Below, in pieces: positions 25,337 through 64,000 of a stretch of 64,000 bases of DNA (the first letter of the stretch is position 1; every line of letters starts with the position of its first letter). The position numbers and the translations under genes were made by a program. The notes below the pieces were generated by a model, which was not told the DNA's origin, ran no database searches, and saw only the letters and a program-made list of their open reading frames with translations. The DNA comes from Bacteroidota bacterium. GTDB taxonomy: Bacteria; Bacteroidota; Bacteroidia; JAIBAJ01. The stretch lies in assembly GCA_947475205.1 (NCBI GenBank), contig CANJNG010000004.1, positions 2,769-66,768 on the forward strand, given 5' to 3'.

Positions 25337-25601
25337 GACGAATATTTTCGTTTGGTTAATATAGACTACAAATATAGTATATCTGTTAAATATAAAGTTA
25401 GCATCCGTTGAAATAAATTCCTCTTATGGTAACTTTTCATCCAAATTTTAGACGCCTGAAGATTAGCCCCCGACCTATACTGACTCCAATCAAAGGAAGT
25501 TTCGGCTACGAAATTTGCTAATTGATATTAACGTTTGGTTCATAAACAATGGGGTAATTGTCATACTTTTCATCCAATTTTTCCACACCTTTGCCACCCC
25601 A

Positions 25602-28226
25602 ATGAGCAAAGCCACCACCGCAGCGGAAACCCCGCTGATGAAGCAATACAACGGCATTAAGTCCAAACATCCCGATGCGATATTGCTGTTTAGGGTAGGC
25701 GATTTCTACGAAACATTTGGCGAAGATGCCGTGAAGGCTTCCAAGGTGCTGGGCATCGTGCTTACCAAGCGGGGAAGTGGTTCGGCTACCGAGGTGGCTT
25801 TGGCCGGATTTCCCTACCACTCCCTCGAAACGTATTTGCCGAAATTGGTTCGGGCAGGCTATCGGGTGGCGGTGTGTGACCAGTTAGAAGATCCCAAGTT
25901 TACCAAAACCATTGTGAAGCGGGGCGTCACCGAAATGGTAACGCCGGGGGTAACGTTTAATGACCATATACTCGAAGCTAAATCGAACAACTTTTTGGCA
26001 GCAGTGTATTTTGACAAAACACAGTTCGGGCTTGCTTTTCTCGATGTATCCACCGGTGAGTTTCTAGCCGGAGCGGGAGATAAAGAATATGCCGACAAGT
26101 TGCTGCAAAGCTTCCGGCCCGGAGAAATTCTTTTCCCTAAACAAAACAAGAACATTTTCAGGGAAAACTTTGGCGGCATCAGCTCTGAGTTTGGGCTGGA
26201 AGATTGGGTGTTCTCCGACGATTATTCGCAAGAACTGCTGCTCAAGCATTTCGCCACCAAATCGCTAAAAGGTTTTGGGTTTGAAAAGAACGGATTGCAT
26301 ACCATAGCGGCGGGTGCGGCACTGCATTATTTGTCTGAAACCCGCCACGACAGGCTGAAACATATCACGAAGCTTCAGCTTATCCAAGAAGAGAATTTCG
26401 TTTGGCTGGATAAGTTCACGATTCGTAACCTCGAAATATTTGGTACAAACACACCAGGAGGAACAGCCTTGGTGGATATTCTGGATAATACATGCACGCC
26501 GATGGGTGGCCGCTTGCTGAAACGCTGGGTGGCATTGCCGCTCAAAAACCGCAAGGCGATAGAAGACCGATTGAATGCGGTTTCAGAACTGAAGGACAAT
26601 GCAGAGCTGAAAGATAATCTGCAAAAGCACCTGTCTTCGGTAGGCGATTTGGAAAGGCTGATGTCGAAGATTGCGGCAGCACGCATCAATCCCCGCGAGG
26701 TAGTGCAACTCCGAAGAACCTTAGAATTGCTTGTTCCGATAAAGGAACTGTGCCTGTCGGCCAACTCCGCTCCGCTCAAACATATAGGCGAACAACTGAA
26801 CCCCTGCCTTTCTATGGTGGAGAAGATTTTCAATGAGGTGCAAGAAGACCCACCGGCATTGGTAAACAAAGGCGGAGTGATAAAAACGGGTGTGAATGCC
26901 GAGTTGGACGAACTACGAGCAATAAGCTCAGCAGGGAAAGATTACCTGCTGCAAGTGCAGCAACGCGAAGCCCTCAAAACGGGCATTACCTCGCTAAAGG
27001 TGGCCTACAATCAGGTGTTTGGTTACTATATTGAAGTGACCAACGCCCACAAAAGTAGAGTGCCCGAAGAATGGGTGCGGAAGCAAACCCTCACCGGTGC
27101 CGAACGCTATATAACCGAGGAGCTAAAAGAATACGAAACCAAGATATTGGGGGCAGAAGAGAAGATTCTGGGCTTGGAAACCCGTCTCTTCGAAGAGTTG
27201 GTTACCGCCTTGGGCGAATACACCGAAGCGGTGCAATTGGATGCTACCTTGGTGGCAAGGCTCGACTGTTTGGTGAACTTTGCCCAAATAGCTATTGACA
27301 ACAACTACGCAAAACCACACCTGAACGATGGCAACATCCTTTCTATAAAACAGGCACGTCACCCGGTTATTGAAAAGCTATTGGCGGTGGGCGAAGAGTA
27401 TGTGCCGAATGATATTCTGCTCGACCCCGAAGATTGTCAGGTGATTATTATGACGGGGCCCAATATGTCGGGTAAATCTGCCTTGCTTCGGCAAACTGCT
27501 TTGGTGGTTATCATGGCTCAGATTGGCTGCTTTGTGCCTGCCCAAAGTGCCGAGATAGGCGTGGTGGACAAAATCTTCACTCGTGTGGGAGCGTCAGACA
27601 ACATTAGTTCGGGAGAGAGTACGTTTATGGTGGAAATGAACGAAACGGCCAGCATCCTGAATAACCTAACACCGAAATCCTTGGTAATATTGGACGAGAT
27701 AGGCCGAGGAACCAGCACCTACGATGGTATTTCTATTGCCTGGGCTATTACGGAATTCCTGCACGAACATCCTTCGGCACGGGCCAAAACAATGTTTGCT
27801 ACTCACTACCACGAACTGAACGAGATGGAAAAGTCCCTTAGCCGTGTGCGGAACTTCTCCATTGCAATAAAGGAGATAAACAACAAGATTATCTTTTTGC
27901 GAAAGCTAATTGCAGGTGGTAGCGAACATAGCTTCGGGATACACGTTGCCCGCATGGCCGGAATGCCGCCCAAGGTGATAGAGCGTGCCAACCAAATACT
28001 TTCGCACCTCGAAAAAGACCATAGTTCGGAAGTCCTAACGGATAGTAAACCTTCCACGGGCAAAAAGGCCGCCCAGCCCGATTACCAGCTTAGCTTCTTC
28101 CAACTCGACGACCCGGTTCTTTCGCAAATCAAAGACGAAATATTGAAAACGGACATCAACACCTTAACTCCTGTGGAGGCTTTGATGAAGCTGAATGAGA
28201 TTAAGAAGGTGCTGTTGGGGAAATGA
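25602..28226 (+). CDS. mutS: DNA mismatch repair protein MutS
   Basis: The ATG at 25602 gives [37 protein letters not shown]... Walker A is GPNMSGKS, and the [12 protein letters not shown] and HYHEL motifs are present. Length is about 875 aa. Confidence 0.92.
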
Positions 28227-47997: not shown

Positions 47998-48189
47998 ATG
48001 ACTGTTATTCTTAAAAAAACCGACAGCCCCGAGGAGGTGAAACGGAAGATAGACCAGTTTATGGAAGCAAGAAGGTCGAAGAACTCCCCAAAAGAAGGGT
48101 TTGACCCCAGCAGATTTTTGGGAAAGTTGAAAGGAATGTATGGCGACCCCATGGAATATCAAAGGAGCGTTCGAGATGAGTGGGCTTGA
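47998..48189 (+). CDS. Putative antitoxin (VapB-like partner of the PIN toxin)
   Basis: 63 aa, charged. Its TGA stop lies 14 bp inside the PIN gene (ATGAGTGGGCTTGA overlap). Confidence 0.5.
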   Translation: MTVILKKTDSPEEVKRKIDQFMEARRSKNSPKEGFDPSRFLGKLKGMYGDPMEYQRSVRDEWA

Positions 48190-48550
48190 ATTATACTTGG
48201 TCGATACCAATATTTATATCCATTTATTTAATGGGAATATAAACGCCGAAAACGCTTTGAAAGGAAGGGTTTTGTATTTTTCCTACATTACCGAGATAGA
48301 GCTTTTGGGCTTTACCGGAATAAGCCCAGAGGCCATTCAAATAGTTAAGGATACACTGGCCTGCAATGTAAAAATTGACCACACCGAAACCATTACTCAA
48401 AAAGCTATTTGGCTGAAACAGCAGCAGAAAATGAAAACTCCCGATGCCATTATTGTAGCCACAGCAATATTGAACAATCTCCCTCTACTCACTGCCGATA
48501 AGGCCTTAGCCAATATCCCTGATTTAGACTGTATCCTCTTTGAAGGGTAA
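48176..48550 (+). CDS. vapC: PIN-domain toxin VapC
   Basis: Three acidic PIN residues sit in context: LYLVDTNIYIH, TPDAIIVATA and LLTADKAL. Confidence 0.75.
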   Translation: MSGLELYLVDTNIYIHLFNGNINAENALKGRVLYFSYITEIELLGFTGISPEAIQIVKDTLACNVKIDHTETITQKAIWLKQQQKMKTPDAIIVATAILNNLPLLTADKALANIPDLDCILFEG

Positions 48551-48680: not shown

Positions 48681-48784
48681 ATCCAACGTTAATAAATAAG
48701 GATATATATTTTTTGAATCTTATTAAATGAATCAATTTCAGTTGTTCTTTTGTAACCATTGTATAAGGTTAAACTACTTGGTTA

Positions 48785-50025
48785 TGAAAGACTATTTATC
48801 ATTGACAGAAACTTCTGAGTATCTTGGGAAAAGCAAACAAACGCTAAGAAGATGGGATAAAGAAAAAAAGCTTGTTGCTGTTCGAGAGCCCATGAGTAAT
48901 TATAGGGTTTATAAAAGAGAACAACTTGAACTCTTTGCTGATTTCATTTCAAATACAGACAAAACTGATTATCCCAATGAAATAGATTCAGAAAACGAGT
49001 ACTCCGTTTTAGAACTATTTGCAGGAGCTGGTGGCTTAGCTGTAGGCTTGGAAAAAGCAGGATTAAAATGCGTTGCCTTAAATGAGATTGATAAATGGGC
49101 TTGCCAAACCTTAAGAAGAAACAGACCCAACTGGAAGGTGCTTGAGGGGGATATTAGAGCATTTGATTTCGTTGAATATAGAGATAGGGTCGATGTTGTT
49201 ACCGGAGGATTTCCATGCCAAGCCTTTAGTTATGCTGGCAAAAGACTTGGGTTGAGCGATGCCCGTGGAACTTTGTTTTACGAATTTGCAAGAGTGGTAA
49301 ATGAAATAAAACCACCAATTTGTATCGGTGAAAATGTGAGAGGGCTTTTAAGTCATGATAATGGCAGGACGTTAAGCGGAATGATTTCCATATTAGATGA
49401 AATTGGCTATAAAGTAGTTCCATATCGAATCCTGAAAGCGATAAACTATTATGTGCCGCAGAAAAGAGAACGATTGATTTTAGTTGGAGTTAGGAAAGAT
49501 ATTCAGATTGAATATCACTATCCAAAACCCACTAAGAAAATCTACACCCTAGCGGATGCACTAAAGAAAGGAGAACTATTTGACAAGGATGTTCCTGTTT
49601 CTGCCGGGGCTAAATATCCAAAGAGTAAAATTGATGTCATGAATTTGGTGCCTCCAAAGGGCTATTGGAGAGATTTGCCTTTAGATATCCAAAAGGAATT
49701 TATGGGTGGAAGTTTCTACCTTGGTGGAGGTAAGACCGGGATGGCAAGAAGAATAGGATGGGATGAGCCTTGCTTGACGCTTACTTGCAGCCCTGCTCAA
49801 AAGCAAACCGAAAGATGTCACCCCGATGAAACAAGACCTTTTACAGTAAGAGAATATGCCCGCATTCAAACATTCCCTGATGACTGGGAATTTGAAGGCT
49901 CAGTTGCTCAGCAATACAAGCAAATTGGAAATGCTGTACCAGTTAACTTAGGCAAGGAGGTTGGCTATTCCATAATCGAATTTTTGAATCAATATTATGC
50001 TCTAAAAGCCGAAAGAATAAAGTAA
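48785..50025 (+). CDS. DNA (cytosine-5)-methyltransferase with N-terminal MerR/Xis-like HTH
   Basis: C5-MTase motifs are present: I ELFAGAGGLAVG, IV GGFPCQAFSYAGK, VI ENVRGLL, and X near the C-terminus (GNAVPVNLG). The N-terminus reads LSLTETSEYLGKSKQTLRRWDKEKKL, consistent with an HTH. The start may instead be at 48727. Confidence 0.9.
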
Positions 50026-50733
50026 CTACTTGTATTTTTCTTGAATTTCTTTGGCCAGAGATTTTATAGTTTGTTCCACTACCTTACTTGCGTCAACTTC
50101 TAAAGCAACTTCACCAATGGCGTCAATCAATTCAAAATAAAAGTCGTCTTTTCCTGTAAGCCTATGCCAAAAATCTTTCCCAACAAAAACAGGATATGTA
50201 TTTCCGATTTTTTTATAATGTGAGCTAAGTTCTGCTGCTTCGCCATATACCACACAAACTATCATATCGTTGATGCCAACATTTATATTATTGGTTCTGG
50301 CAAGGCTACGAACGCCATTAAAGTGATTAATTATGGTAGTTACATCGTCATGATTGATTGTGTTTGGCCCTGCTTTTAACTGACAATATTTTTTCCTTCC
50401 GTCAATTGCATCTATAAATTCAATGTCGATTCCTTGAGTAGTAGAACCTAAGCCCTGAAATAAGGTGCTGATTAAACTCTGAATCTTCATTCCAAAGGAA
50501 GTATTAATTGAAGAGCCTAAAATTCGTGGCAGAACAAGAGCCCGGGCAATGCTTTCCGCATCATCGTTCCCTGTAAGGAAATTTGCCAGGTATTTAAATA
50601 AAAAGGGGTTAACATTGTATTCCGACAGTTTACTTGCTCTTTTGCAAGCACCGTCAATATGGCTTTGTACAATTTCATTTCTGAAAAACGTTTTTGCATT
50701 TTCAATTATTTGTTTTCTCTGACTATTGTTCAT
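50026..50733 (-). CDS. Putative type II restriction endonuclease (cognate of the C5-MTase)
   Basis: 235-aa ORF convergent with the MTase gene, with stop codons 1 bp apart. It has a candidate PD-(D/E)xK-like segment (GIDIEFIDAIDGRKKYCQLK). The region is low in GC. Confidence 0.45.
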   Translation of the reverse strand: MNNSQRKQIIENAKTFFRNEIVQSHIDGACKRASKLSEYNVNPFLFKYLANFLTGNDDAESIARALVLPRILGSSINTSFGMKIQSLISTLFQGLGSTTQGIDIEFIDAIDGRKKYCQLKAGPNTINHDDVTTIINHFNGVRSLARTNNINVGINDMIVCVVYGEAAELSSHYKKIGNTYPVFVGKDFWHRLTGKDDFYFELIDAIGEVALEVDASKVVEQTIKSLAKEIQEKYK

Positions 50734-50943: not shown

Positions 50944-50984
<41 letters not shown>

Positions 50985-51040
50985 TAAGCTATTAAATTCC
51001 AAAAAAATTTTTTCCGGGTTTAACGAAGGGAAGCAAACAG

Positions 51041-51300
51041 GGTCTATTTCTGTCCGAAGTAAGGCTATTTCCATCCGAAATAGGGCTGTTTCCATTCGAA
51101 ATAGGGCTGTTTCCATCCGAAACAGGGCTGTTTCCGTCCGAAATAGGGCTATTTCCATCCGAAATAGGGCTATTTCCATCCGAAGTAAGGCTATTTCCAT
51201 CCGAAACAGGGCTGTTTCCATCCGAAACAGGGCTGTTTCCATCCGAAATAGGGCTGTTTCCATCCGAAATAGGGCTGTTTCCATCCGAAATAGGTCTATT
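51041..51300. repeat. 21-bp minisatellite, about 12 units (consensus GGCTGTTTCCATCCGAAATAG)
   Basis: Units differ at 1-3 positions (ATTT vs GTTT, AATAG vs AACAG vs AGTAA). The ORFs 50911..51306 (+) and 50982..51284/50992..51312 (-) are repeat artefacts. Confidence 0.9.
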
Positions 51301-51362
51301 TTCTAAACTCAAAACTTCGTTTACATCTTAAATATTTATATTAATCCCTAAAAATCAATACA

Positions 51363-53030: not shown

Positions 53031-54461
53031 ATGAAAACTACCTATCAAATTCAGCACACAGCAAAGTTATTGGCAAAGGCTCTTTGCCTTCAATTAGCGT
53101 TAACCACACCCATTTCAGCCTTTGCTCAATCGTCAGTACTCGACACTGAATTTTCGTCCTATTTGGGTAGTTATGCCAACTGCTTATCGCTGTATCCGGA
53201 TGGGAAAATTGTTGTAACCGGACGGTTTTCGAATGGCGGAAACTTTATTAAACGGCTATTGCCCAATGGCACTACCGATAGTTTTCATCACTACTACAAG
53301 AGCCCGGCAGGTGAACTTACCAGCAATGCTATTCAAAGCGATGGTAAAATTATAGTTGGGGGCTTCTTCACATTTTATGGCGATATGGATGCTAATTATT
53401 TATGGGGCGAGCATCCTTATATTGCACGGTTAAACTACAATGGAGAGATAGATACTACGTTTTCGCCCCTTATGCTTAACGCACCAGTTCGCACCTTAGC
53501 AATTGATGCTAACCAACGAATACTAGCCGGTGGTGATTTTACCGATAACGATGGCTATAACCTTAACAGTATTGCCCGCTTTATGCCCGATGGTAGTTTA
53601 GACCCATCTTTTAGTATAGGAACAGGTTTTAATGCCGCTGTTTTTAAGATACTTGTTCAGCCCGATGGTAAAATTTTAGTTGCAGGTAATTTTACTGAAT
53701 TTAACGGCGTTCCGGCTTTTCGCATCGCCCGTTTGAATGATGATGGTAGCTTAGATTCAGGCTTTGGAATTGGAGCCGGGTTCGATGATATTGTTCTCGA
53801 TTTGGCAGTTCAGCCCGACGGGAAAATTATAGCCGGTGGAAATTTTTTGGCCTGTCAAGGTCAGGAATGCACACGATTGGCCAGGCTAGAAGCCAATGGC
53901 AACCTTGATGTAACATTTTCGCAAAATGCCTCGGCCGATTCAACCGTTTTAGCCGTTGCCGTTACCGAAAGTGGTGCAATTGTGGTGGGGGGTGAATTTT
54001 TGAACCTAAATGGCGTGTCGCGAAGCAGGATTGGCCAGTTAAAACCAAATGGTACTCTCGACACTAATTTCGATCCCGGTGTAGGGTGCAATAAATATGT
54101 AGCCGATATTTTGATTCAGCCGGATAAACGCATTTTACTCACCGGATTTTTCACCAAATACAACAATGTTGTCGAAATCAGAATTTGCCGACTTATGGGC
54201 GAAGACCCATTAGCTATTTCTGATATTCATGATAGTCAGTTGTGGTATAGTTTTATTAACGACAACGGAAATCTGCAACTGGAAAACCTTCAGGCGAAAA
54301 GCAAAATTCAACTCCTCAATATCTCGGGGGTAGAAATACTTAACACCGATGAAATAAACGGAAAAGCACGATTAGCGACTTCTCTTATTCCGAAAGCTGT
54401 TTATATTCTCAAAGTGTATTCCGAGAGTACCGTAAGCACAAAGAAGGTTGTGGTTGATTAA
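53031..54461 (+). CDS. Secreted beta-propeller (delta-60/YVTN-like repeat) protein with T9SS C-terminal domain
   Basis: The signal peptide ends at AFAQ. Repeated blades follow: DGKIIVGGxF, PDGKILVAGNF and QPDGKIIAGGNF. The C-terminal tail reads KAVYILKVYSESTVSTKKVVVD. Confidence 0.7.
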   Translation: MKTTYQIQHTAKLLAKALCLQLALTTPISAFAQSSVLDTEFSSYLGSYANCLSLYPDGKIVVTGRFSNGGNFIKRLLPNGTTDSFHHYYKSPAGELTSNAIQSDGKIIVGGFFTFYGDMDANYLWGEHPYIARLNYNGEIDTTFSPLMLNAPVRTLAIDANQRILAGGDFTDNDGYNLNSIARFMPDGSLDPSFSIGTGFNAAVFKILVQPDGKILVAGNFTEFNGVPAFRIARLNDDGSLDSGFGIGAGFDDIVLDLAVQPDGKIIAGGNFLACQGQECTRLARLEANGNLDVTFSQNASADSTVLAVAVTESGAIVVGGEFLNLNGVSRSRIGQLKPNGTLDTNFDPGVGCNKYVADILIQPDKRILLTGFFTKYNNVVEIRICRLMGEDPLAISDIHDSQLWYSFINDNGNLQLENLQAKSKIQLLNISGVEILNTDEINGKARLATSLIPKAVYILKVYSESTVSTKKVVVD

Positions 54462-54583: not shown

Positions 54584-56674
54584 ATGACAAAACTATTTAC
54601 CCTTTTAGCAGCGGCTTTAGTTACCACAGTTTCTGCCCAAAATTACAGCATTGGTACCCGAACTATTACCTTTAACGACCCCGCCAGAACAGGAGGAACC
54701 GGGAGTGGAGGAGGGCCCGGCCGTCAAATTCAAACCTATTTAATATATCCATCGGTTACTTCAGGAGCCAATACTGCTGTTGCTACTGGTTCTTTTCCTG
54801 TTGTTGTTTTTGGACATGGCTTTTCCATGACCTACGATGCATACAAACCAATTTATGATAGTCTGGCAAGTTGGGGATATGTGGTTTGTCTGCCTTCCAC
54901 AGAAGGAGGAACATTATCCACCTCACATCCTGATTTTGCTCAGGACCTAGCGATTGTTTTAGATAAAACACTTGCTTTCAACACCAATAACGCCTCACCA
55001 TTTATCGGAAAAATCAATGGTAAAGGTGCAATAGGTGGCCATAGTATGGGTGGCGGGTGCAGCTTTTTGTCGGCACAATTTACCACTAATGAAACCTGCC
55101 TATTCAACTTTGCAGCGGCAGAAACCACACCTTCTGCTGTAGCACAATGCAGCACAACAGTTGATCAGCCATTGCTTGTTATTGCAGGTAGTTATGATGT
55201 AGTGGCACCTCCGGCTTCTAATCAGGATTTAATGTATAATGCTGCAATATCAGCCTGCAAAACGTATGTGAATATTACAGGGGCCTATCATTGCCAATTT
55301 TCAGATGTAAATCTTGCCTGTCAGTTTGGTGAAGGGTCTTTATTCCCCCCATCTGGCGGACCAAGCCGAGATCAACAATTGGCCACCACCCGCAAAGTCC
55401 TTCGCCCCTTTCTTGATTTTTGGTTGAAAGGAATATGTGCCCAATGGACAAACTTTGAGGCCCTGCTTACTGCCGGACAGGGTATAACCAGCCAACAAAA
55501 TTGCAATGTGAGTATTCCTACTACTCCCGTAATTCAAACAAGCGGAGCAACCACATTTTGTGCAGGAGGAAGCGTTGATTTAAGTGTTTCTGCCGGAAAT
55601 TCCAATGTTCTATGGAGCAACAATCAAACAACAAGTAGCATTACAGCCTCTACTAACAATACCTATGCAGTTACCCTTACCGGAACAAACAACTGTTCAG
55701 CAACATCGGCTCCAACCACAGTAACCGTAAACCCTGCACCTAACGCAACCATTGTTCCCCAGGGGGCAACTAGCGTTTGTGCACCCGCTACTGTTACCCT
55801 GACATCGCCATCTACCACCGGAAATTTATGGAGTACCGGACAAACAACACAAACAATTACCATAACCCAAACAAGCAATATTTCCTTGACCGTAACCGAC
55901 GGAAATAACTGTCAAGCTACATCGCAATCCGTTTCAGTAAGTATTGCAGATTCGCTGGTGCCGCCAATTACCGGTGAGTTTGGTGCGTTTTTCTGTCAAG
56001 GTACCACTGCCCAATTATCATTGCCCGATTTTTCAAATTACACCTCTGTTCTATGGAGCGATAACTCAACAGCACAAACTACAACAGCCAACCAAATAGG
56101 TCAGTATTGTGTAAGTGTAACCTCATCAGGGTGCAATGGCAGCAATTGTATAACCTTAACCGATGGCACACCCGCCGCAAACTTTACCGTTACTAATTTA
56201 GCTCCGCTTTTAGCCGGAAATGTAATTGATTTCGCTCCAAATATTTTTCAAGGCGACCCAAATTCAAGCGTGAGCTGGGATTATGGCGATGGAACAAACG
56301 GCACAGCCAATAACCATATTTATACCTCGATGGGTTTATTCAATGCCTGTATCACCGTTACCGACCCGCAAACCGGATGCAGTAGCATTCCATATTGCAG
56401 TGGATTTATGATTGATGGCTTTGTTGGAATAGAATCAAATAAACCGCAAACCTCTTTTGGCATAAAGCCCAATCCTGCACAAAATACAGTAACTGTTTTC
56501 GGAATAAAGAAGTTCCCGGAGCAAATTATCCTTTCAGATATGTCGGGTCGGGTAGTATTAGAATCAAGTCTAAATACCGAAATGAGCACCCTAAATATTA
56601 GTCAACTTAAATCGGGGATTTATTTCTTGAAATCGGTTAAGGAATCCAAGGTTCTTAAACTTGTTGTGGAATAG
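54584..56674 (+). CDS. Secreted alpha/beta-hydrolase esterase (cutinase/PETase-like, dienelactone-hydrolase fold) fused to Ig/PKD repeats and a T9SS C-terminal domain
   Basis: Signal peptide MTKLFTLLAAALVTTVSAQ. The lipase box is FPVVVFGHGFSMTYDAYKPIYDSLASWGYVVCLP. The nucleophile elbow is GHSMGGG, and candidate Asp/His residues sit in VIAGSYDVVAPP and GAYHCQF. The PKD signature is SWDYGDGTNGTANNHIYTSMGLFNACITVTD. The C-terminal tail is GIYFLKSVKESKVLKLVVE. Confidence 0.75.
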   Translation: MTKLFTLLAAALVTTVSAQNYSIGTRTITFNDPARTGGTGSGGGPGRQIQTYLIYPSVTSGANTAVATGSFPVVVFGHGFSMTYDAYKPIYDSLASWGYVVCLPSTEGGTLSTSHPDFAQDLAIVLDKTLAFNTNNASPFIGKINGKGAIGGHSMGGGCSFLSAQFTTNETCLFNFAAAETTPSAVAQCSTTVDQPLLVIAGSYDVVAPPASNQDLMYNAAISACKTYVNITGAYHCQFSDVNLACQFGEGSLFPPSGGPSRDQQLATTRKVLRPFLDFWLKGICAQWTNFEALLTAGQGITSQQNCNVSIPTTPVIQTSGATTFCAGGSVDLSVSAGNSNVLWSNNQTTSSITASTNNTYAVTLTGTNNCSATSAPTTVTVNPAPNATIVPQGATSVCAPATVTLTSPSTTGNLWSTGQTTQTITITQTSNISLTVTDGNNCQATSQSVSVSIADSLVPPITGEFGAFFCQGTTAQLSLPDFSNYTSVLWSDNSTAQTTTANQIGQYCVSVTSSGCNGSNCITLTDGTPAANFTVTNLAPLLAGNVIDFAPNIFQGDPNSSVSWDYGDGTNGTANNHIYTSMGLFNACITVTDPQTGCSSIPYCSGFMIDGFVGIESNKPQTSFGIKPNPAQNTVTVFGIKKFPEQIILSDMSGRVVLESSLNTEMSTLNISQLKSGIYFLKSVKESKVLKLVVE

Positions 56675-56825: not shown

Positions 56826-57188
56826 ATGTCAACGCCTGCCGATTACCTGCCGATTCTGCTTCAGTTTATTGCAGCTTTGGGTTTTGTTGTGCTCACGATA
56901 GGGGCAACCCATTTGTTAGGTCCCAAACGCCATACCAATGTTAAAAACGAAACCTTTGAATGCGGTATCGAGTCAGTTGGTAATGCCCGTGTACCGTTTA
57001 GTATTAAATACTTTTTGGTAGCCATCCTTTTTGTGCTTTTCGATGTGGAAGTAATATTTATGTATCCTTGGGCAGTGAACTTCAAAAGTTTGGGTGTGCG
57101 AGGTTTGATAGAAATGTTTATGTTCATGTCCTTATTGCTTCTCGGCTTCTTCTACATTATCAAGAAAGGTGCTTTGAAGTGGGAGTAA
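56826..57188 (+). CDS. nuoA: NADH-quinone oxidoreductase subunit A
   Basis: 120 aa with 3 TM helices and the conserved ECGxE motif (FECGIES). Confidence 0.9.
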   Translation: MSTPADYLPILLQFIAALGFVVLTIGATHLLGPKRHTNVKNETFECGIESVGNARVPFSIKYFLVAILFVLFDVEVIFMYPWAVNFKSLGVRGLIEMFMFMSLLLLGFFYIIKKGALKWE

Positions 57189-57261
57189 TTTCAATTACGA
57201 ATTGAAAATCCTCACAAAGTCTAATATCTCACATCTAATATCTCAAGTCTAAAAATAAAAA

Positions 57262-57834
57262 ATGGGTGCAGAAAAAATAAACCAATCGCTTCCTTCGCGG
57301 ATTCAGATTGTAGGAGCTCCTGACGGAATCGAAGGGCCGGGCTTCTTTGCCACACAGCTCGACACAGTGGTAGGAATGGCTCGCAAAAACTCTATTTGGC
57401 CTTTACCGTTTGCCACATCGTGTTGCGGTATCGAATTTATGGCTACAATGGGAGCACATTACGATTTAGGTCGTTTTGGGTCTGAAAGACTTTCATTTTC
57501 GCCCCGCCAAGCCGATTTGCTAATGGTGATGGGAACTATTGCAAAGAAAATGGGGCCAATTCTTCGTCAAGTGTATGAACAAATGGCTGAACCCCGCTGG
57601 GTGATTGCCGTTGGTGCCTGTGCATCGAGCGGAGGAATATTTGATACCTATAGCGTACTTCAAGGAATTGATAGGATTATACCTGTGGATGTTTACGTTC
57701 CCGGATGCCCACCCCGCCCCGAGCAAATATTGGATGGTGTAATGAAAATTCAGGAATTGGTACAAGCCGAGAGCCGTGGAAGAAGGGAGTCGGCTGAATA
57801 CAAGGCCGAACTAGGAAAGTATGGAATTGAGTAA
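57262..57834 (+). CDS. nuoB: NADH-quinone oxidoreductase subunit B
   Basis: Cys ligands of cluster N2 are CCGIEFMA...GACASSGG...CPP. Confidence 0.9.
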
Positions 57835-57864
57835 ATTATAGTTTCAGAAAGTATAAATTAGAAA

Positions 57865-58386
57865 ATGGCCTTAACAAACGAACTAGTTGCTGATAAACTT
57901 GCCGATAAATTTGGCGATGCTATTTTAAGCACTGAACAGCAATACGACTTTCAGGTTTGGACTGTGAAACGCGAAAAGATAGTTGAAATCATTCAGTTTC
58001 TGTATGAGGATGCTGCTTTGCAATATCAGTTTCTTACCACTATGTGTGGCATCCATATTCCGGCTAACACGGCCGATAAGCAAATGTGTGTAATGTATCA
58101 ATTGCACAATCTGCCCGAAAATCACCGCATTCGCTTAAAAGTATATTTCGCAGAAGCCGATAGGAATATGCCAACCATCACCCCGATTTTCCGCACTGCA
58201 AACTGGATGGAACGCGAAGCCTACGATTTTTATGGCATCATTTTCAAAGGGCATCCGAATTTGAAAAAGATTCTAAATATGGAAGACCAAGAGTTTTTCC
58301 CAATGATGAAATATTTCCCGTTAGAAGATGGAACACGGGAAGACAAAGATGATACGATGTTTGGCAGAAAGGCCTTGAATAAATGA
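57865..58386 (+). CDS. nuoC: NADH-quinone oxidoreductase subunit C
   Basis: 173 aa with the 30-kDa subunit signature (ERExYDxxGIxFxGHP). Confidence 0.9.
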   Translation: MALTNELVADKLADKFGDAILSTEQQYDFQVWTVKREKIVEIIQFLYEDAALQYQFLTTMCGIHIPANTADKQMCVMYQLHNLPENHRIRLKVYFAEADRNMPTITPIFRTANWMEREAYDFYGIIFKGHPNLKKILNMEDQEFFPMMKYFPLEDGTREDKDDTMFGRKALNK

Positions 58387-58486
58387 ATTTAGAATTCAGA
58401 TGTTAGACATTAGAAGTTAGACCATATTTATGCTGAGTCTAAAATCTAAAATCTAAAATCTAAAATCTCCTATCTAAACACACACA

Positions 58487-59695
58487 ATGAGCAACGTAAT
58501 AGCCGAACCTCAAAAGAAAGAAAAAGAATACTCCACCCTCAACCTGGGTCCAACCCATCCGGCTACGCATGGAATTTTTCAGAACGTACTGAAAATGGAC
58601 GGGGAGATTATTATGGATAGCGAAGCTACAATTGGGTATATCCACCGTGCGTTTGAGAAAATTGCCGAACACCGTCCATATTATCAAATCACTACCCTTA
58701 CTGATAGGATGAACTATTGCTCATCGCCTATCAACAATATGGGCTGGGAAATGACCGTGGAAAAACTTCTTGGGGTAGAAATTCCCAAACGGGTGGACTA
58801 TATGCGGATAGTAATTATGGAATTGGCCCGTATTGCCGACCATATTGTTTGCAATACCGTAATTGGTGTGGACACGGGTGCTTTATCGGGCTTTGTGTAT
58901 ATGTTTCAGTGGAGAGAAAAGATTTACGAAATATTTGAAGAAATATGTGGAGCCAGACTAACCACTAACATTGGAAGAATTGGTGGGTTTGAGCGTGATT
59001 TCTCTGATAAATCATGGAAGCAAATCAATGATTTTATTGCTGAATTTCCTGCTATTCTAAAAGAGTATGAGGGCTTATTGATGCGTAATCGAATCTTTAT
59101 GGATCGCACTATCGGAGCTGGACCTATTTCTCCCGAACTTGCTTTAAACTATGGTTTCACAGGGCCTAATCTTCGTGCGGCAGGTGTTGATTACGATGTG
59201 AGGGTTATGAATCCATATTCATCTTACCAAGATTTTGATTTCATTGTTCCGGTGGGTACCAAGGGCGATACTTATGATCGCTTTCAGGTGCGACACGAAG
59301 AAATGAAGCAAAGCCAGAGCATAATTAAACAAGCACTTCAAAAGCTTGAGGGTATGAAAGGCGGGCCGCACCATGCCGATGTTCCTGCTTTTTATCTTCC
59401 ACCTAAGGATGAGGTTTACAACAATATGGAAGCCTTAATCTATCACTTCAAAGTGGTGATGGGCGAAGTGGATGTTCCGGTTGGGGAAGTATATCACAGT
59501 GTAGAAGGCGGCAATGGAGAATTGGGCTTTTATGTTATCAGCGATGGGGGCAGGGCTCCTTTCCGGGTGCATTTCCGTCGGCCATGCTTTATTTATTACC
59601 AAGGATATGCCGATATGGTGAAAGGTTCCATGCTGTCAGATGCAATTCTTACGCTTTCGAGCATGAATGTGATAGCCGGGGAGTTGGATGCCTGA
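58487..59695 (+). CDS. nuoD: NADH-quinone oxidoreductase subunit D
   Basis: 402 aa. LGPTHPATHG is the 49-kDa subunit signature, and the C-terminal motif is RVHFRRPCF. Confidence 0.9.
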   Translation: MSNVIAEPQKKEKEYSTLNLGPTHPATHGIFQNVLKMDGEIIMDSEATIGYIHRAFEKIAEHRPYYQITTLTDRMNYCSSPINNMGWEMTVEKLLGVEIPKRVDYMRIVIMELARIADHIVCNTVIGVDTGALSGFVYMFQWREKIYEIFEEICGARLTTNIGRIGGFERDFSDKSWKQINDFIAEFPAILKEYEGLLMRNRIFMDRTIGAGPISPELALNYGFTGPNLRAAGVDYDVRVMNPYSSYQDFDFIVPVGTKGDTYDRFQVRHEEMKQSQSIIKQALQKLEGMKGGPHHADVPAFYLPPKDEVYNNMEALIYHFKVVMGEVDVPVGEVYHSVEGGNGELGFYVISDGGRAPFRVHFRRPCFIYYQGYADMVKGSMLSDAILTLSSMNVIAGELDA

Positions 59696-62958: not shown

Positions 62959-64000
62959 TTATTCCTTCATAACACGTAACACCTTGCGTTGGTCGCCTAC
63001 GGTTACTGTTACATGGTATAATCCTTTTGCAAGTCCATTGCCAATGGTAATTTCTGAAGCAGTTGTTTTTGCTTCGTAAACTAGCTTACCAACTAAATCA
63101 ACCATTTGGATGTTTACTTCATGACCTGTGGCGTTGTGGCTGATGTTGAGTGTACTTGAGAAAGGGTTTGGATATGCGTTTACATCAAAGGCTACAGGTT
63201 CAACTCTTCCATCCTCTAATGATTCCTCTAGTTTCAAGGCTGATGTAATCGTTAAACTACATGGAGTGGAAAAACTTCCCCATGAACCATTTACAAAAGC
63301 TCTTACCGTTACGGTATATGTCCTTCCACCTACCAAGCCGAGAACAGAGCTTGGCTTCATGCTGGCGGATAGACTACCTCTTTGATAAGTTTGATTAAAC
63401 CCTGAAGCTGTATGGACAAAACGATATTCGTAATTTGTGGCACCAGTTACAGTGTATATATAAACAAAATCATTAATAGTTGCTATTGTTGCTCCGCAGG
63501 ACGCAGGGGTTAGTTGAGTGGCTGTTGAAATACTCAATGCACAAGCATCCCCGTATTCACCCCATCTGCCGCCAACAAACGCTCTAACAGATACTTGATA
63601 AGTAGCTGGCACCGGTAAGCCGCTTATATAGTTCGGGCGAGCAGTATTTTGTCCATTACCCCTCTGAAAGCTCTGACTATAGCCTGCCGCAGAATTAACG
63701 AAGCGATATTCGTAATTGGTGGCTCCAGAAACCGAAACACATGAGATTATATCGCCAAGGGCTACAGTTGTGCCGCAATATGAAGTGGTGAGTTTGGTGC
63801 ATTTCTCATCTGTTTGGCCATTACAGTTATCATCAATTCCATTCCCACAAATCTCAGGAGCTCCGGGGTTTGTTGTTGAAACTGCATCGTTGCAATCTCC
63901 ACTTAATGCTGTTAATGCTGTCGCTAATTTGTGGTCAACTGGTTGTGCACATTGTGTGATTGTGCTGCCATTAGAATAAGCGTCATTATCTGCATCTCTG
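62959..64000 (-). CDS. Repeat-domain cell-surface protein with T9SS C-terminal sorting domain (5' end beyond the window)
   Basis: The C-terminal Por tail is NPFSSTLNISHNATGHEVNIQMVDLVGKLVYEAK...GLYHVTVTVGDQRKVLRVMKE. The upstream frame stays open on the minus strand from 63613 to 64000, with the ~50-aa module (GATNYEYRFV...YQRG...) occurring three times. The listed ORF start at 63612 is an internal GTG. Confidence 0.6.
   Translation of the reverse strand, partial: RDADNDAYSNGSTITQCAQPVDHKLATALTALSGDCNDAVSTTNPGAPEICGNGIDDNCNGQTDEKCTKLTTSYCGTTVALGDIISCVSVSGATNYEYRFVNSAAGYSQSFQRGNGQNTARPNYISGLPVPATYQVSVRAFVGGRWGEYGDACALSISTATQLTPASCGATIATINDFVYIYTVTGATNYEYRFVHTASGFNQTYQRGSLSASMKPSSVLGLVGGRTYTVTVRAFVNGSWGSFSTPCSLTITSALKLEESLEDGRVEPVAFDVNAYPNPFSSTLNISHNATGHEVNIQMVDLVGKLVYEAKTTASEITIGNGLAKGLYHVTVTVGDQRKVLRVMKE

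What the first reader, a model, noticed from the sequence alone, without database searches (positions are those of the whole stretch)
54584..56674. Cutinase/PETase-like serine esterase fused to PKD and T9SS domains
The N-terminal ~300 aa carry the polyester-hydrolase/dienelactone-hydrolase-type motifs: the lipase box VVVFGHGFSMTYDAYKPIYDSLASWGYVV, the GHSMGGG nucleophile elbow, and a downstream Asp/His. The fold is the one of cutinases and PET hydrolases. The known Bacteroidota PET-active enzymes are likewise exported through a Por/T9SS C-terminal domain. The enzyme is here followed by Ig-like and PKD modules and a T9SS tail.
Basis: partly seen in the sequence, partly recalled or inferred. Interest (0 to 1): 0.55.

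Follow-up and report, generated by a model that had tools for sequence, protein, structure and literature searches.

The report
Surface-tethered PETase-like esterase, PET38 clade
This gene encodes a secreted serine esterase with the cutinase/PET-hydrolase fold on a stalk of four Ig-like modules with a Bacteroidota type IX secretion tail, but it belongs to a large untested branch (the PET38 clade) that lacks a key PET-binding tryptophan, so it is an ordinary family member, not a demonstrated plastic-degrader.

Summary
A 696-aa ORF at 54584..56674 (+) encodes a signal peptide, an alpha/beta-hydrolase domain, three Ig-like repeats, a PKD-like module and a type A T9SS sorting domain. The hydrolase domain passes Pfam's PETase threshold (49.8 bits against 28). 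Ser154, Asp205 and His236 are invariant in 61 relatives. A confident AlphaFold model (pLDDT 93) matches PETases and cutinases best in the PDB.

The domain is 17-21% identical to IsPETase and to PET30, one of the two PET-active Bacteroidota enzymes. It is 41% identical over 369 residues to PET38 of Fluviicola taffensis, which expressed poorly and showed no activity in the 2022 study. The clade has Phe-Met-Ala where active PETases have Tyr/Phe-Met-Trp/Tyr: an invariant Ala179 plus a conserved E-T-N/T-P insertion replaces the aromatic clamp. The clade is present in at least 540 species genomes, almost all Bacteroidota, and has no conserved gene neighbours.

Most likely it is a Sec- and T9SS-exported, surface-displayed or released carboxylesterase with an unknown natural ester substrate. 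The four-module stalk is the longest among 219 relatives examined. It is a new member of a known kind, of modest interest.

The parts
54584..56674 (+). Complete ORF, 696 aa plus stop codon
   Evidence: the identical protein P0121 is found on 16 metagenome contigs
54584..54640 (+). Sec signal peptide, residues 1-19 (MTKLFTLLAAALVTTVSA|Q). Predicted cleavage after V-S-A leaves an N-terminal Gln20.
   Evidence: Read from the sequence. Gln20 is at least 90% conserved in the family, and [ASG]Q occurs in the first 40 aa of 206 of 219 members. No signal-peptide predictor was available.
54641..55507 (+). Alpha/beta-hydrolase catalytic domain, residues about 20-308 (PF12740 PET-hydrolase-like, PET38 clade)
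   Evidence: Pfam 49.8 bits against GA 28. AF2 pLDDT 93.4, pTM 0.90. Foldseek top 50 are all PETases/cutinases. 41% identity to PET38.
54677..54724 (+). Family-specific Gly-rich loop D32-P-A-R35-T-G-G-T-G-S-G-G-G-P-G-R47 in the N-terminal beta-hairpin; function unknown
   Evidence: D32, R35 and R47 are invariant; G38, G40, G42-44 and G46 are at least 90% conserved. The loop lies between strands 22-32 and 47-57 of the model.
54815..54823 (+). H78-G79-F80 oxyanion-hole motif; F80 aligns with Tyr87 of IsPETase
   Evidence: Invariant in 61 of 61; alignments to PETase chains
55043..55045 (+). Codon of the catalytic nucleophile Ser154 (G-H-S-M-G-G-G elbow); Met155 is the second oxyanion-hole residue
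   Evidence: The only GxSxG match. Invariant. Sits between strand 144-153 and helix 155-165 of the model. Aligns with the GWSMGGG of PETases.
55118..55132 (+). A179-E180-T181-T182-P183: invariant Ala at the position of the PETase aromatic-clamp Trp185, followed by a conserved four-residue insertion
   Evidence: Profile alignment to 8d1d and 7pzj. Column counts: A 61/61, E 48/61 (N 11, Q 2), T 59/61, N/T 60/61, P 58/61.
55196..55198 (+). Codon of the catalytic acid Asp205
   Evidence: Invariant. Lies in the loop after strand 197-202. Aligns with Asp of the NDSIAP motif of PETases.
55289..55291 (+). Codon of the catalytic base His236, followed by invariant Cys237
   Evidence: Invariant. Lies in the loop after strand 226-231. 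Aligns with His of the GGSH motif of PETases.
55520..55738 (+). Ig-like repeat 1, residues 313-385 (Ig_7 / CHU_C-associated type)
   Evidence: Repeat alignment. Homologues carry PF19081. Beta-sandwich in the AF2 model. GhpA Ig-like matches.
55739..55948 (+). Ig-like repeat 2, residues 386-455
55949..56167 (+). Ig-like repeat 3, residues 456-528 (more divergent, extra Cys)
56168..56416 (+). PKD-like beta-sandwich module, residues 529-611
   Evidence: PKD_4 E 3e-5, 24.4 bits, below GA 27. All-beta in the model.
56417..56449 (+). Flexible linker, residues 612-622, the likely region of CTD cleavage
   Evidence: The only segment with pLDDT below 50 (model residues 307-317). Cleavage here is an inference.
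56450..56671 (+). Type A T9SS C-terminal sorting domain, residues about 623-696
   Evidence: PF18962 39.9 bits against GA 27. TIGR04183 40.4 bits against 23. Seven-strand beta module in the model.

Best explanation
The gene encodes an extracellular serine carboxylesterase of the PETase/cutinase-like alpha/beta-hydrolase family (Pfam PF12740). It belongs to the large Bacteroidota-specific branch that contains PET38 of Fluviicola taffensis.

Proposed working, step by step:
1. The N-terminal signal peptide directs Sec export and is cleaved after Ala19, leaving Gln20 (inferred from sequence).
2. The protein folds in the periplasm.
3. The type A C-terminal domain is recognised by the type IX secretion system, which moves the protein across the outer membrane.
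4. The PorU-type sortase removes the C-terminal domain. The enzyme is then either linked to the cell surface or released. Steps 2-4 rest on established T9SS knowledge (PMC10202324) and are inferred here from the domain match.
5. Three Ig-like repeats and one PKD-like module form a beads-on-a-string stalk that holds the catalytic head away from the cell surface (inferred from the model).
6. Ser154 attacks the ester carbonyl, activated by His236 and Asp205. The backbone NH groups of Phe80 and Met155 form the oxyanion hole (inferred by alignment to PETases).

The natural substrate is not known. It is most likely an insoluble or particle-bound ester met outside the cell, such as a lipid, a wax or an aliphatic polyester. 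PET hydrolysis is not expected to be significant, because the aromatic clamp is missing.
For: - Family: Pfam PETase is above threshold for the window protein and for 61 of 61 relatives. The family profile hits PDB PETases at about 1e-25.
- Fold: the AF2 model has pLDDT 93.4, and all of the top 50 Foldseek PDB hits are PETases or cutinases.
- Active site: Ser154, Asp205, His236, HGF and Met155 are invariant. They lie at the canonical positions after strands 5, 7 and 8 of the fold.
- Clade: 41% identity and E 2e-73 to PET38, identified through accession WP_083800582.1.
- Export: the T9SS tail is above both curated cut-offs, and 57 of 61 relatives also carry it. Gln20 at +1 is conserved. Other T9SS-tailed genes lie close by.
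- Stalk: the model is all-beta and modular with a disordered linker. It is homologous to Ig_7 repeats and structurally similar to the GhpA Ig-like domains.
Against: - No biochemical activity has been shown for any member of this clade. PET38 gave no activity on tributyrin, pNP esters, PCL, BHET, Impranil or PET, although it was made only in very low amounts (PMC8767016).
- No T9SS machinery gene was looked for in the window.
- Whether the enzyme is anchored or released cannot be told from sequence.
Confidence: 0.8

Rival explanations
1. One reading: it is a true polyesterase or PET hydrolase, functionally like PET27 and PET30. It would be secreted by T9SS to attack PET or similar aromatic polyesters, with the stalk modules helping the cell act on plastic surfaces.
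For: - The best Pfam family and the best structural neighbours are PET hydrolases.
- Phe80 and Met155 match two of the three 'substrate binding' residues, and Phe at the first position is shared with PET27, PET30 and Cut190 (PMC8767016).
- The elbow is His-Ser-Met, as in the cutinase-type enzyme 8ian (GHSMGGG).
- PET27 and PET30 also have T9SS tails.
- Structurally divergent flavobacterial hydrolases (PET93, PET94) can still act on PET (PMC13188925).
Against: - Identity to IsPETase and PET30 is only 17-21%, and the Pfam match covers only profile positions 50-218 of 263.
- The third binding residue is an invariant Ala179 followed by a polar E-T-N/T-P insertion. No aromatic residue lies in 177-195.
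- The F-M-A candidate PET38, 41% identical, was inactive on all substrates tested, although poorly expressed.
- From my own knowledge, mutation of Trp185 in IsPETase strongly reduces PET hydrolysis (Han 2017; Joo 2018).
- The metagenome contigs and nearest relatives give no sign of selection on plastics.
Confidence: 0.12
2. It is functionally a chlorophyllase- or PAF-acetylhydrolase-type lipid esterase. It would cleave small lipidic esters such as the chlorophyll phytol ester, phospholipids or waxes released from algae or cyanobacteria on which these freshwater Bacteroidota feed, rather than polymer chains.
For: - Pfam Chlorophyllase (30.4 bits against GA 26) and PAF-AH_p_II (22 against GA 20) both pass their cut-offs.
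- Chlorophyllase is matched by 61 of 61 relatives and PAF-AH by 42 of 61.
- The PAF-AH match lies exactly on residues 68-102, the stretch that holds the invariant H78-G79-F80 motif, whereas aligned PETases have P-G-Y there. From my own knowledge, chlorophyllases and PAF-AH also carry an H-G motif at this point.
- Invariant polar residues (E107, H115, D121, E180) suggest a less hydrophobic cleft.
- The hosts are mostly lake and wastewater Crocinitomicaceae, Chitinophagales and Saprospiraceae.
Against: - Both matches are partial: Chlorophyllase profile positions 37-135 of 301, and PAF-AH only 35 residues. Both are weaker than PETase.
- No chlorophyllase or PAF-AH structure appears in the top 50 Foldseek hits or the top 60 PDB profile hits.
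- Overlapping hits among families of one Pfam clan are expected.
- No neighbouring gene points to pigment or lipid use.
Confidence: 0.15
3. It is not an enzyme in practice. It would be an adhesin whose hydrolase-like head has lost activity and serves only for binding, given the adhesin-type Ig-like stalk and the inactivity of PET38.
For: - The stalk repeats are the same kind as in giant adhesin-like proteins and in the GhpA grappling hook.
- PET38 showed no activity.
Against: - Ser154, Asp205, His236, the G-H-S-M-G-G elbow and the HGF motif are each invariant in 61 of 61 relatives that share only 42-61% identity with the window protein. This is the signature of purifying selection on catalysis.
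- The negative result for PET38 is explained by very low expression.
Confidence: 0.03

Closest known systems
PET38 (WP_083800582.1 / AEA45568.1, Fluta_3599) of Fluviicola taffensis, a candidate in Zhang et al. 2022 (PMC8767016)
   Same: - 41% identity over 369 aa, E 2e-73.
- Same HGF, GHSMGGG, AETNP, D-V and H-C motifs.
- The same Phe-Met-Ala 'binding' triplet.
- An Ig-like module after the hydrolase, and a type A T9SS tail.
- The same family by reciprocal searches.
   Different: - PET38 has one Ig-like module (447-459 aa). The window protein has three plus a PKD-like module (696 aa).
- PET38 was never shown to be active, so it gives no functional annotation to transfer.
PET30 (Kaistella jeonii, PDB 7pzj) and PET27 (Aequorivita sp.), the PET-active Bacteroidota esterases
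   Same: - Alpha/beta-hydrolase of Pfam PF12740 with a Ser-Asp-His triad.
- Phe and Met oxyanion/binding residues.
- A T9SS PorC-type tail.
- 7pzj is Foldseek rank 4 (TM 0.61/0.71) and the top PDB profile hit, partly because of its tail.
   Different: - Only about 18% identity.
- PET30 and PET27 have Tyr or Trp at the clamp position and P-G-F rather than H-G-F.
- They lack the Gly-rich hairpin loop and the ETNP insertion.
- They have no Ig-like or PKD stalk (about 365 aa).
- They are experimentally active on PCL, Impranil, BHET and PET.
IsPETase and bacterial cutinases (LCC, TfCut2, and 8ytw-type actinobacterial 'dienelactone hydrolase' PET hydrolases)
   Same: - The best structural and sequence neighbours among solved structures.
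- The catalytic residues and the S-M elbow align.
   Different: - 17-21% identity, with TM-score about 0.6 on the query length.
- No aromatic clamp.
- H-G-F instead of P-G-Y.
- Different conserved cysteines (C225, C237, C246, C285, C307).
- A multidomain T9SS cargo rather than a single-domain secreted enzyme.
GhpA grappling-hook protein of Aureispira (PDB 9flw and others) and giant Ig_7-repeat T9SS proteins
   Same: - The stalk repeats at residues 313-528 are the same Ig-like repeat type: Foldseek E 1e-16 and 30-50% identity to repeats in giant proteins.
   Different: - Those proteins are 1,000-7,000 aa adhesin or hook structures with 8-44 repeats and no hydrolase head.
- Here only three repeats serve as a spacer.

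Membership tests
Alpha/beta-hydrolase serine esterases | GxSxG nucleophile elbow between a strand and a helix | tested here: met
   GHSMG at 152-156 is the only match. It is invariant. Ser154 lies between strand 144-153 and helix 155-165.
Alpha/beta-hydrolase serine esterases | Ser-Asp-His triad in hydrogen-bonding geometry | tested here: inconclusive
   Asp205 and His236 are invariant, lie in the canonical loops after strands 197-202 and 226-231, and align with the PETase Asp and His. Distances could not be measured, because model coordinates are not exposed.
Pfam PF12740 (PET hydrolase-like / polyesterase-lipase-cutinase) | Whole-protein score at or above the gathering score of 28 bits | tested here: met
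   49.8 bits for the full protein and 51.8 for the domain. 61 of 61 relatives match. The match covers only profile positions 50-218 of 263.
Functionally verified PET hydrolases (IsPETase, LCC, PET27, PET30 type) | Oxyanion/binding residues Tyr or Phe (IsPETase 87) and Met (161) | tested here: met
   Phe80 and Met155 are invariant and aligned.
Functionally verified PET hydrolases (IsPETase, LCC, PET27, PET30 type) | Aromatic clamp Trp (IsPETase 185) or Tyr (PET30 178) | tested here: not met
   The profile alignment puts invariant Ala179 there, followed by the inserted E-T-N/T-P. The pairwise alignment puts Ser184 there. No aromatic residue lies in 177-195.
Functionally verified PET hydrolases (IsPETase, LCC, PET27, PET30 type) | C-terminal disulfide (IsPETase C273-C289; PET30 C262-C285) | tested here: inconclusive
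   Cys285 (50/61) and Cys307 (53/61) are conserved in the C-terminal segment. Pairing cannot be checked without coordinates.
Functionally verified PET hydrolases (IsPETase, LCC, PET27, PET30 type) | Measured release of TPA, MHET or BHET from PET | not testable with these tools
   The only tested clade member, PET38, was negative but poorly expressed (PMC8767016).
PET27/PET30 clade of Bacteroidota | Close sequence kinship of the catalytic domain | tested here: not met
   18% identity to 7pzj in the structural alignment. The catalytic-domain part of the profile hit scores 53 bits, against 92 for an IsPETase variant.
PET38 clade (Bacteroidota T9SS 'dienelactone hydrolase' / 'PET hydrolase family protein') | Full-domain homology plus the clade motifs HGF, T-E, AETNP and H-C, and the Gly-rich hairpin loop | tested here: met
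   41% identity over 369 aa to P0159, which clusters with WP_083800582.1. The motifs are invariant or nearly so. There are 1776 to 2229 or more cluster representatives.
T9SS type A cargo | C-terminal sorting domain matching TIGR04183 / PF18962 above cut-off | tested here: met
   40.4 bits against 23, and 39.9 against 27, at residues 629-695. A seven-strand beta module appears in the model.
T9SS type A cargo | N-terminal Sec signal peptide | tested here: inconclusive
   The sequence shows K3, a hydrophobic core and V-S-A|Q. Gln at +1 is conserved. No dedicated predictor was run.
T9SS type A cargo | Host encodes the T9SS machinery (SprA/Sov, PorV, PorU, GldKLMN) | not tested
   Only indirect evidence: two other genes with Por_Secre_tail matches lie in the window, and the relatives are almost all Bacteroidota.
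Chlorophyllase (PF07224) | Score above GA and coverage of the family profile | tested here: inconclusive
   30.4 bits against GA 26, but only profile positions 37-135 of 301, and weaker than PETase. Family-wide best E is 2e-12 against 5e-26 for PETase.
PAF-acetylhydrolase (PF03403) | Score above GA and coverage of the family profile | tested here: inconclusive
   22 bits against GA 20, but only 35 residues (68-102, the HG region) are matched out of a 372-position profile.
PKD domain (PF00801 / PF18911) | Score above the gathering score | tested here: not met
   22.9-24.4 bits against 27, and 19.0-19.4 against 23.5, with E 3e-5 to 1e-3. The fold is a beta-sandwich, hence 'PKD-like'.
Ig_7 (PF19081, Ig-like domain CHU_C associated) | Direct Pfam match, or homology to proteins that match | tested here: inconclusive
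   There is no direct Pfam hit at E up to 10. Most of the 92 homologues of residues 306-625 carry PF19081, and the model matches Ig-like chains.

The most novel reading that the evidence does not exclude
The PET38 clade would be a functionally distinct, very widespread family of T9SS-displayed esterases of freshwater and wastewater Bacteroidota. Its conserved polar features would define a substrate pocket for a natural ester that is not a PETase or cutinase substrate, for example algal or cyanobacterial lipids or pigments. These features are Ala179 with the E-T-N/T-P loop in place of the aromatic clamp, the H-G-F motif, invariant Glu107, His115 and Asp121, and the Gly-rich hairpin loop. The window protein's unusually long four-module stalk would be an adaptation for reaching particulate prey or detritus. 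If so, current database names ('PET hydrolase family protein', 'dienelactone hydrolase') would be misleading for thousands of proteins.
Probability: 0.2. Interest if true: 0.5.

Novelty: new member of a known kind. Interest (0 to 1): 0.28.

Why it matters
Thousands of Bacteroidota proteins carry the 'PET hydrolase-like' label through Pfam PF12740, and metagenome surveys may count such hits as plastic-degrading potential. This case shows that the window protein and its whole clade (at least 540 species genomes) sit far from the active enzymes and lack the aromatic clamp. The clade's only experimental test was negative. Such hits should therefore not be read as PETases without assays. The clade is also a large, strongly conserved and biochemically dark family of surface-displayed esterases in lake and wastewater Bacteroidota. 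A soluble, active member would fill a real gap. The protein itself is an ordinary modular T9SS cargo.

Tried and rejected
Triad distances, pocket shape, disulfide pairing and the position of the Gly-rich loop could not be checked.
- The PET38 sequence is not in the paper's supplements and no other paper mentions it. It was recovered instead by a homology search from a Fluviicola family member and an accession look-up.
- The representative search with the full-length protein was swamped by giant Ig-repeat proteins. It did not show whether other hydrolases share the four-module stalk. A census of 219 family members was used instead.
- Conserved gene neighbourhood was tested on 80 genome loci. 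The commonest neighbour cluster occurs in only 12 loci, so there is no operon partner to suggest a substrate.
- BLASTP of the middle region against itself found no internal repeats. The repeats are too divergent and show up only by alignment, homology and structure.
- Sigma-70 promoter and terminator scans around the gene were at chance level and do not apply to Bacteroidota promoters.
- Rfam found nothing in the window, so no rRNA was available for taxonomy. The source organism stays 'uncultured Bacteroidota'.
- The pseudoenzyme/adhesin reading was rejected because the catalytic residues are invariant.
Full report
**Observation.** An uninterrupted ORF runs from 54584 to 56674 on the + strand and encodes 696 aa. 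VVVFGHGFSMTYDAYKPIYDSLASWGYVV lies at residues 73-101. GHSMGGG lies at 152-158 and is the only GxSxG match in the protein. SYDVVAPP and GAYHC lie further on. The identical protein is on record as a singleton cluster (P0121). It occurs on 16 metagenome contigs with the same neighbours: a DUF5122 beta-propeller gene upstream and nuoA-D downstream. It is therefore a real gene.

**Domain content.** Pfam gives PETase (PF12740) at E 4e-13 and 49.8 bits against a gathering score of 28, over residues 67-243. It gives Por_Secre_tail at 39.9 bits against 27, over residues 629-694. Chlorophyllase (30.4 bits against 26, profile 37-135 of 301) and PAF-AH_p_II (22 bits against 20, only residues 68-102) are weaker and partial. 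PKD_4 and PKD fall below threshold at 22.9 and 19.0 bits. NCBIfam confirms the type A T9SS sorting domain, TIGR04183, at 40.4 bits against 23.

The VVVFGHGF stretch is the oxyanion-hole (H-G) region. The lipase box proper is the GHSMG elbow.

**The catalytic domain.**
- Sequence search of the PDB with residues 1-319 finds only PETase/cutinase-type chains. The best is 8ytw at 1.7e-12, and many IsPETase entries follow.
- A 61-sequence family alignment (A1) has several invariant residues: G77-H78-G79-F80, M82, Y87, T106-E107, H115, F118, D121, G152-H153-S154-M155-G156-G157, A179, G202, D205, V207, K226, H236-C237 and G249.
- The family profile hits PDB PETases at about 1e-25.
- The AlphaFold2 model is confident, with mean pLDDT 93.4 and pTM 0.90.
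- Ser154 sits between strand 144-153 and helix 155-165. Asp205 follows strand 197-202 and His236 follows strand 226-231. This is the canonical alpha/beta-hydrolase placement of nucleophile, acid and base.
- All of the top 50 Foldseek PDB hits are IsPETase variants, PET30 (7pzj, rank 4) or cutinases. Values are E about 1e-15, TM 0.58-0.65 on the query, 0.68-0.77 on the target, and 17-21% identity.
- Every one of the 61 relatives matches Pfam PETase best. The best E-values are 4.9e-26 for PETase, 2.2e-12 for Chlorophyllase and 6.3e-7 for PAF-AH.
The domain is nonetheless an outlier within the PETase-like family.

**Which branch it belongs to.** The Bacteroidota PET-active enzymes PET27 and PET30 are about 365-aa proteins with a PorC/T9SS tail. 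Their binding triplets are Phe-Met-Trp and Phe-Met-Tyr (PMC8767016).

The same paper lists PET38 of Fluviicola taffensis (WP_083800582.1, 447 aa). PET38 has a PorC tail, a long C-terminal part and a Phe-Met-Ala triplet. It was produced only in very low amounts and was scored negative on every substrate.

A search from a Fluviicola family member recovered a 447-aa F. taffensis DSM 16823 protein, P0159 (AEA45568.1). Its 90% cluster also contains WP_083800582.1. The window protein is 41% identical to it over 369 residues, E 2e-73, extending into the first Ig-like module. A separate match covers the tail. The window protein is thus a member of the PET38 clade, not of the PET27/PET30 clade.

The profile alignments show the structural reason for the 'F-M-A' triplet:
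- Phe80 aligns with Tyr87 of IsPETase.
- Met155 aligns with Met161.
- The A-P-W or C-P-Y segment that carries the aromatic clamp aligns with A-A/P-A179.
- A four-residue insertion then follows: E180 (E 48, N 11, Q 2 of 61), T181, N/T182, P183.

The pairwise alignment instead places Ser184 at the clamp position. Either way, no aromatic residue lies in 177-195. From my own knowledge, the clamp Trp stacks on the terephthalate ring and its mutation strongly reduces PET hydrolysis.

**Size and spread of the clade.**
- The catalytic domain has 1776 cluster representatives at E up to 1e-3. The best is 59% identical.
- Source annotations include 'dienelactone hydrolase', 'pimeloyl-ACP methyl ester carboxylesterase' and 'T9SS type A sorting domain-containing protein'.
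- One F. taffensis paralogue or allele is named 'poly(ethylene terephthalate) hydrolase family protein' by UniRef.
- A scan of species-representative genomes found at least 540 genomes with a relative. Nearly all are Bacteroidota MAGs: Crocinitomicaceae, Chitinophagales, Saprospiraceae/Lewinellaceae and Flavobacteriales. Many come from lakes and wastewater.
- ORF clustering around the gene in 80 loci found no recurrent neighbour. The maximum was 12 of 80 loci. The closest complete-genome relative (P0003, 58% identical) lies in a different context. The gene is a stand-alone unit.

**The C-terminal half.**
- Residues 313-528 form three divergent Cys-containing repeats.
- Homologues of residues 306-625 (92 hits, best E 3e-63) mostly carry Pfam Ig_7 (PF19081), PKD, and type A or type B T9SS tails.
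- The exhaustive representative search is dominated by 1,000-7,000-aa proteins with 8-44 copies of the same repeat.
- The AF2 model of residues 306-696 has mean pLDDT 89 and is all-beta. It shows five separate modules and one disordered linker at residues 612-622, just before the sorting domain.
- Its best PDB matches are the Ig-like fragments of the Aureispira grappling-hook protein GhpA (E about 1e-16), followed by chains of Ig domains.
- The architecture is: signal peptide, hydrolase, three Ig-like modules, one PKD-like module, linker, type A CTD.
- Among 219 clade members, 31 have no stalk, 175 have one module and 5 have two. The window protein's four-module stalk is the longest seen. That sample consists of top hits and is not random.

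**How it most likely works.**
- The N-terminus (MTKLFTLLAAALVTTVSA|Q) reads as a Sec signal peptide. Gln at +1 is conserved across the family.
- T9SS cargo with type A CTDs fold in the periplasm and are recognised through the CTD. They pass the SprA/Sov translocon and are handed by PorV to the PorQUZ complex. There PorU cleaves the CTD and either links the protein to anionic LPS or releases it (PMC10202324).
- By inference the same applies here. The stalk would space the catalytic head from the cell surface.
- Catalysis would follow the standard serine-hydrolase mechanism. These steps are inferred from homology; none was shown for this protein.

**Substrate.** The substrate cannot be assigned. 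The missing clamp, the polar conserved residues, the distance from active PETases and the negative (though weak) PET38 result make PET activity unlikely, at about 0.12. A lipid- or pigment-ester specificity is possible, at about 0.15, but rests only on partial Pfam matches and the H-G motif. A pseudoenzyme is very unlikely given the invariant catalytic residues.

**Comparison and novelty.** The protein is a new member of a known kind: a modular T9SS-exported alpha/beta-hydrolase of Pfam PF12740, in the previously noticed but uncharacterised PET38 branch. The long stalk is a minor architectural variant.

**Significance.** The main value of the analysis is cautionary. 'PETase-like' hits of this clade should not be counted as plastic-degrading potential. 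The clade's conserved, unexplained features mark a large biochemically dark family. These features are the Gly-rich hairpin loop D32-R47, Glu107, His115, Asp121 and the AETNP loop.

Noticed in passing
window 50945-51301: There is a 21-bp tandem array (11.9 copies, 91% matches, unit TCCGAAATAGGGCTGTTTCCA) at 51053-51301, and a 7-bp array (GGTCAGC x5.7) at 50945-50984. They produce spurious repeat-peptide ORFs in three frames. Gene calls across this stretch differ between metagenome contigs, which suggests variation in copy number.
   Followed up: partly
window 48727-50733: A type II restriction-modification pair: a cytosine-5 DNA methyltransferase (PF00145, 48727-50025 +) convergent with an EcoO109I-type restriction endonuclease (PF14511, 50026-50733 -). 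A PIN-domain protein lies just upstream (48140-48550, PF01850 46 bits).
   Followed up: partly
window 53031-54461 and 62959-63612: Two further likely T9SS cargo genes. One is a 476-aa protein with seven DUF5122 beta-propeller repeats and a weak Por_Secre_tail match (23.5 bits), directly upstream of the hydrolase. The other is a 217-aa protein with a clear Por_Secre_tail (41.3 bits) on the minus strand.
   Followed up: partly
window 54677-54724 (hydrolase residues 32-47): A family-specific Gly-rich loop, D-P-x-R-T-G-G-x-G-S-G-G-G-P-G-R, lies in the N-terminal beta-hairpin and is almost invariant. It is longer than the corresponding loop of PETases, and its role is unknown.
   Followed up: partly
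window 56826-59695: The nuoA, nuoB, nuoC and nuoD genes of NADH dehydrogenase start 151 bp downstream of the hydrolase on the same strand. This adjacency is kept in all metagenome copies of this organism but not in other family members, so it is probably coincidental.
   Followed up: partly
window 25515-28226: The local G+C rise (0.487 against about 0.41) at 26-28 kb coincides with a full-length MutS gene. No Rfam RNA family was detected anywhere in the window.
   Followed up: yes
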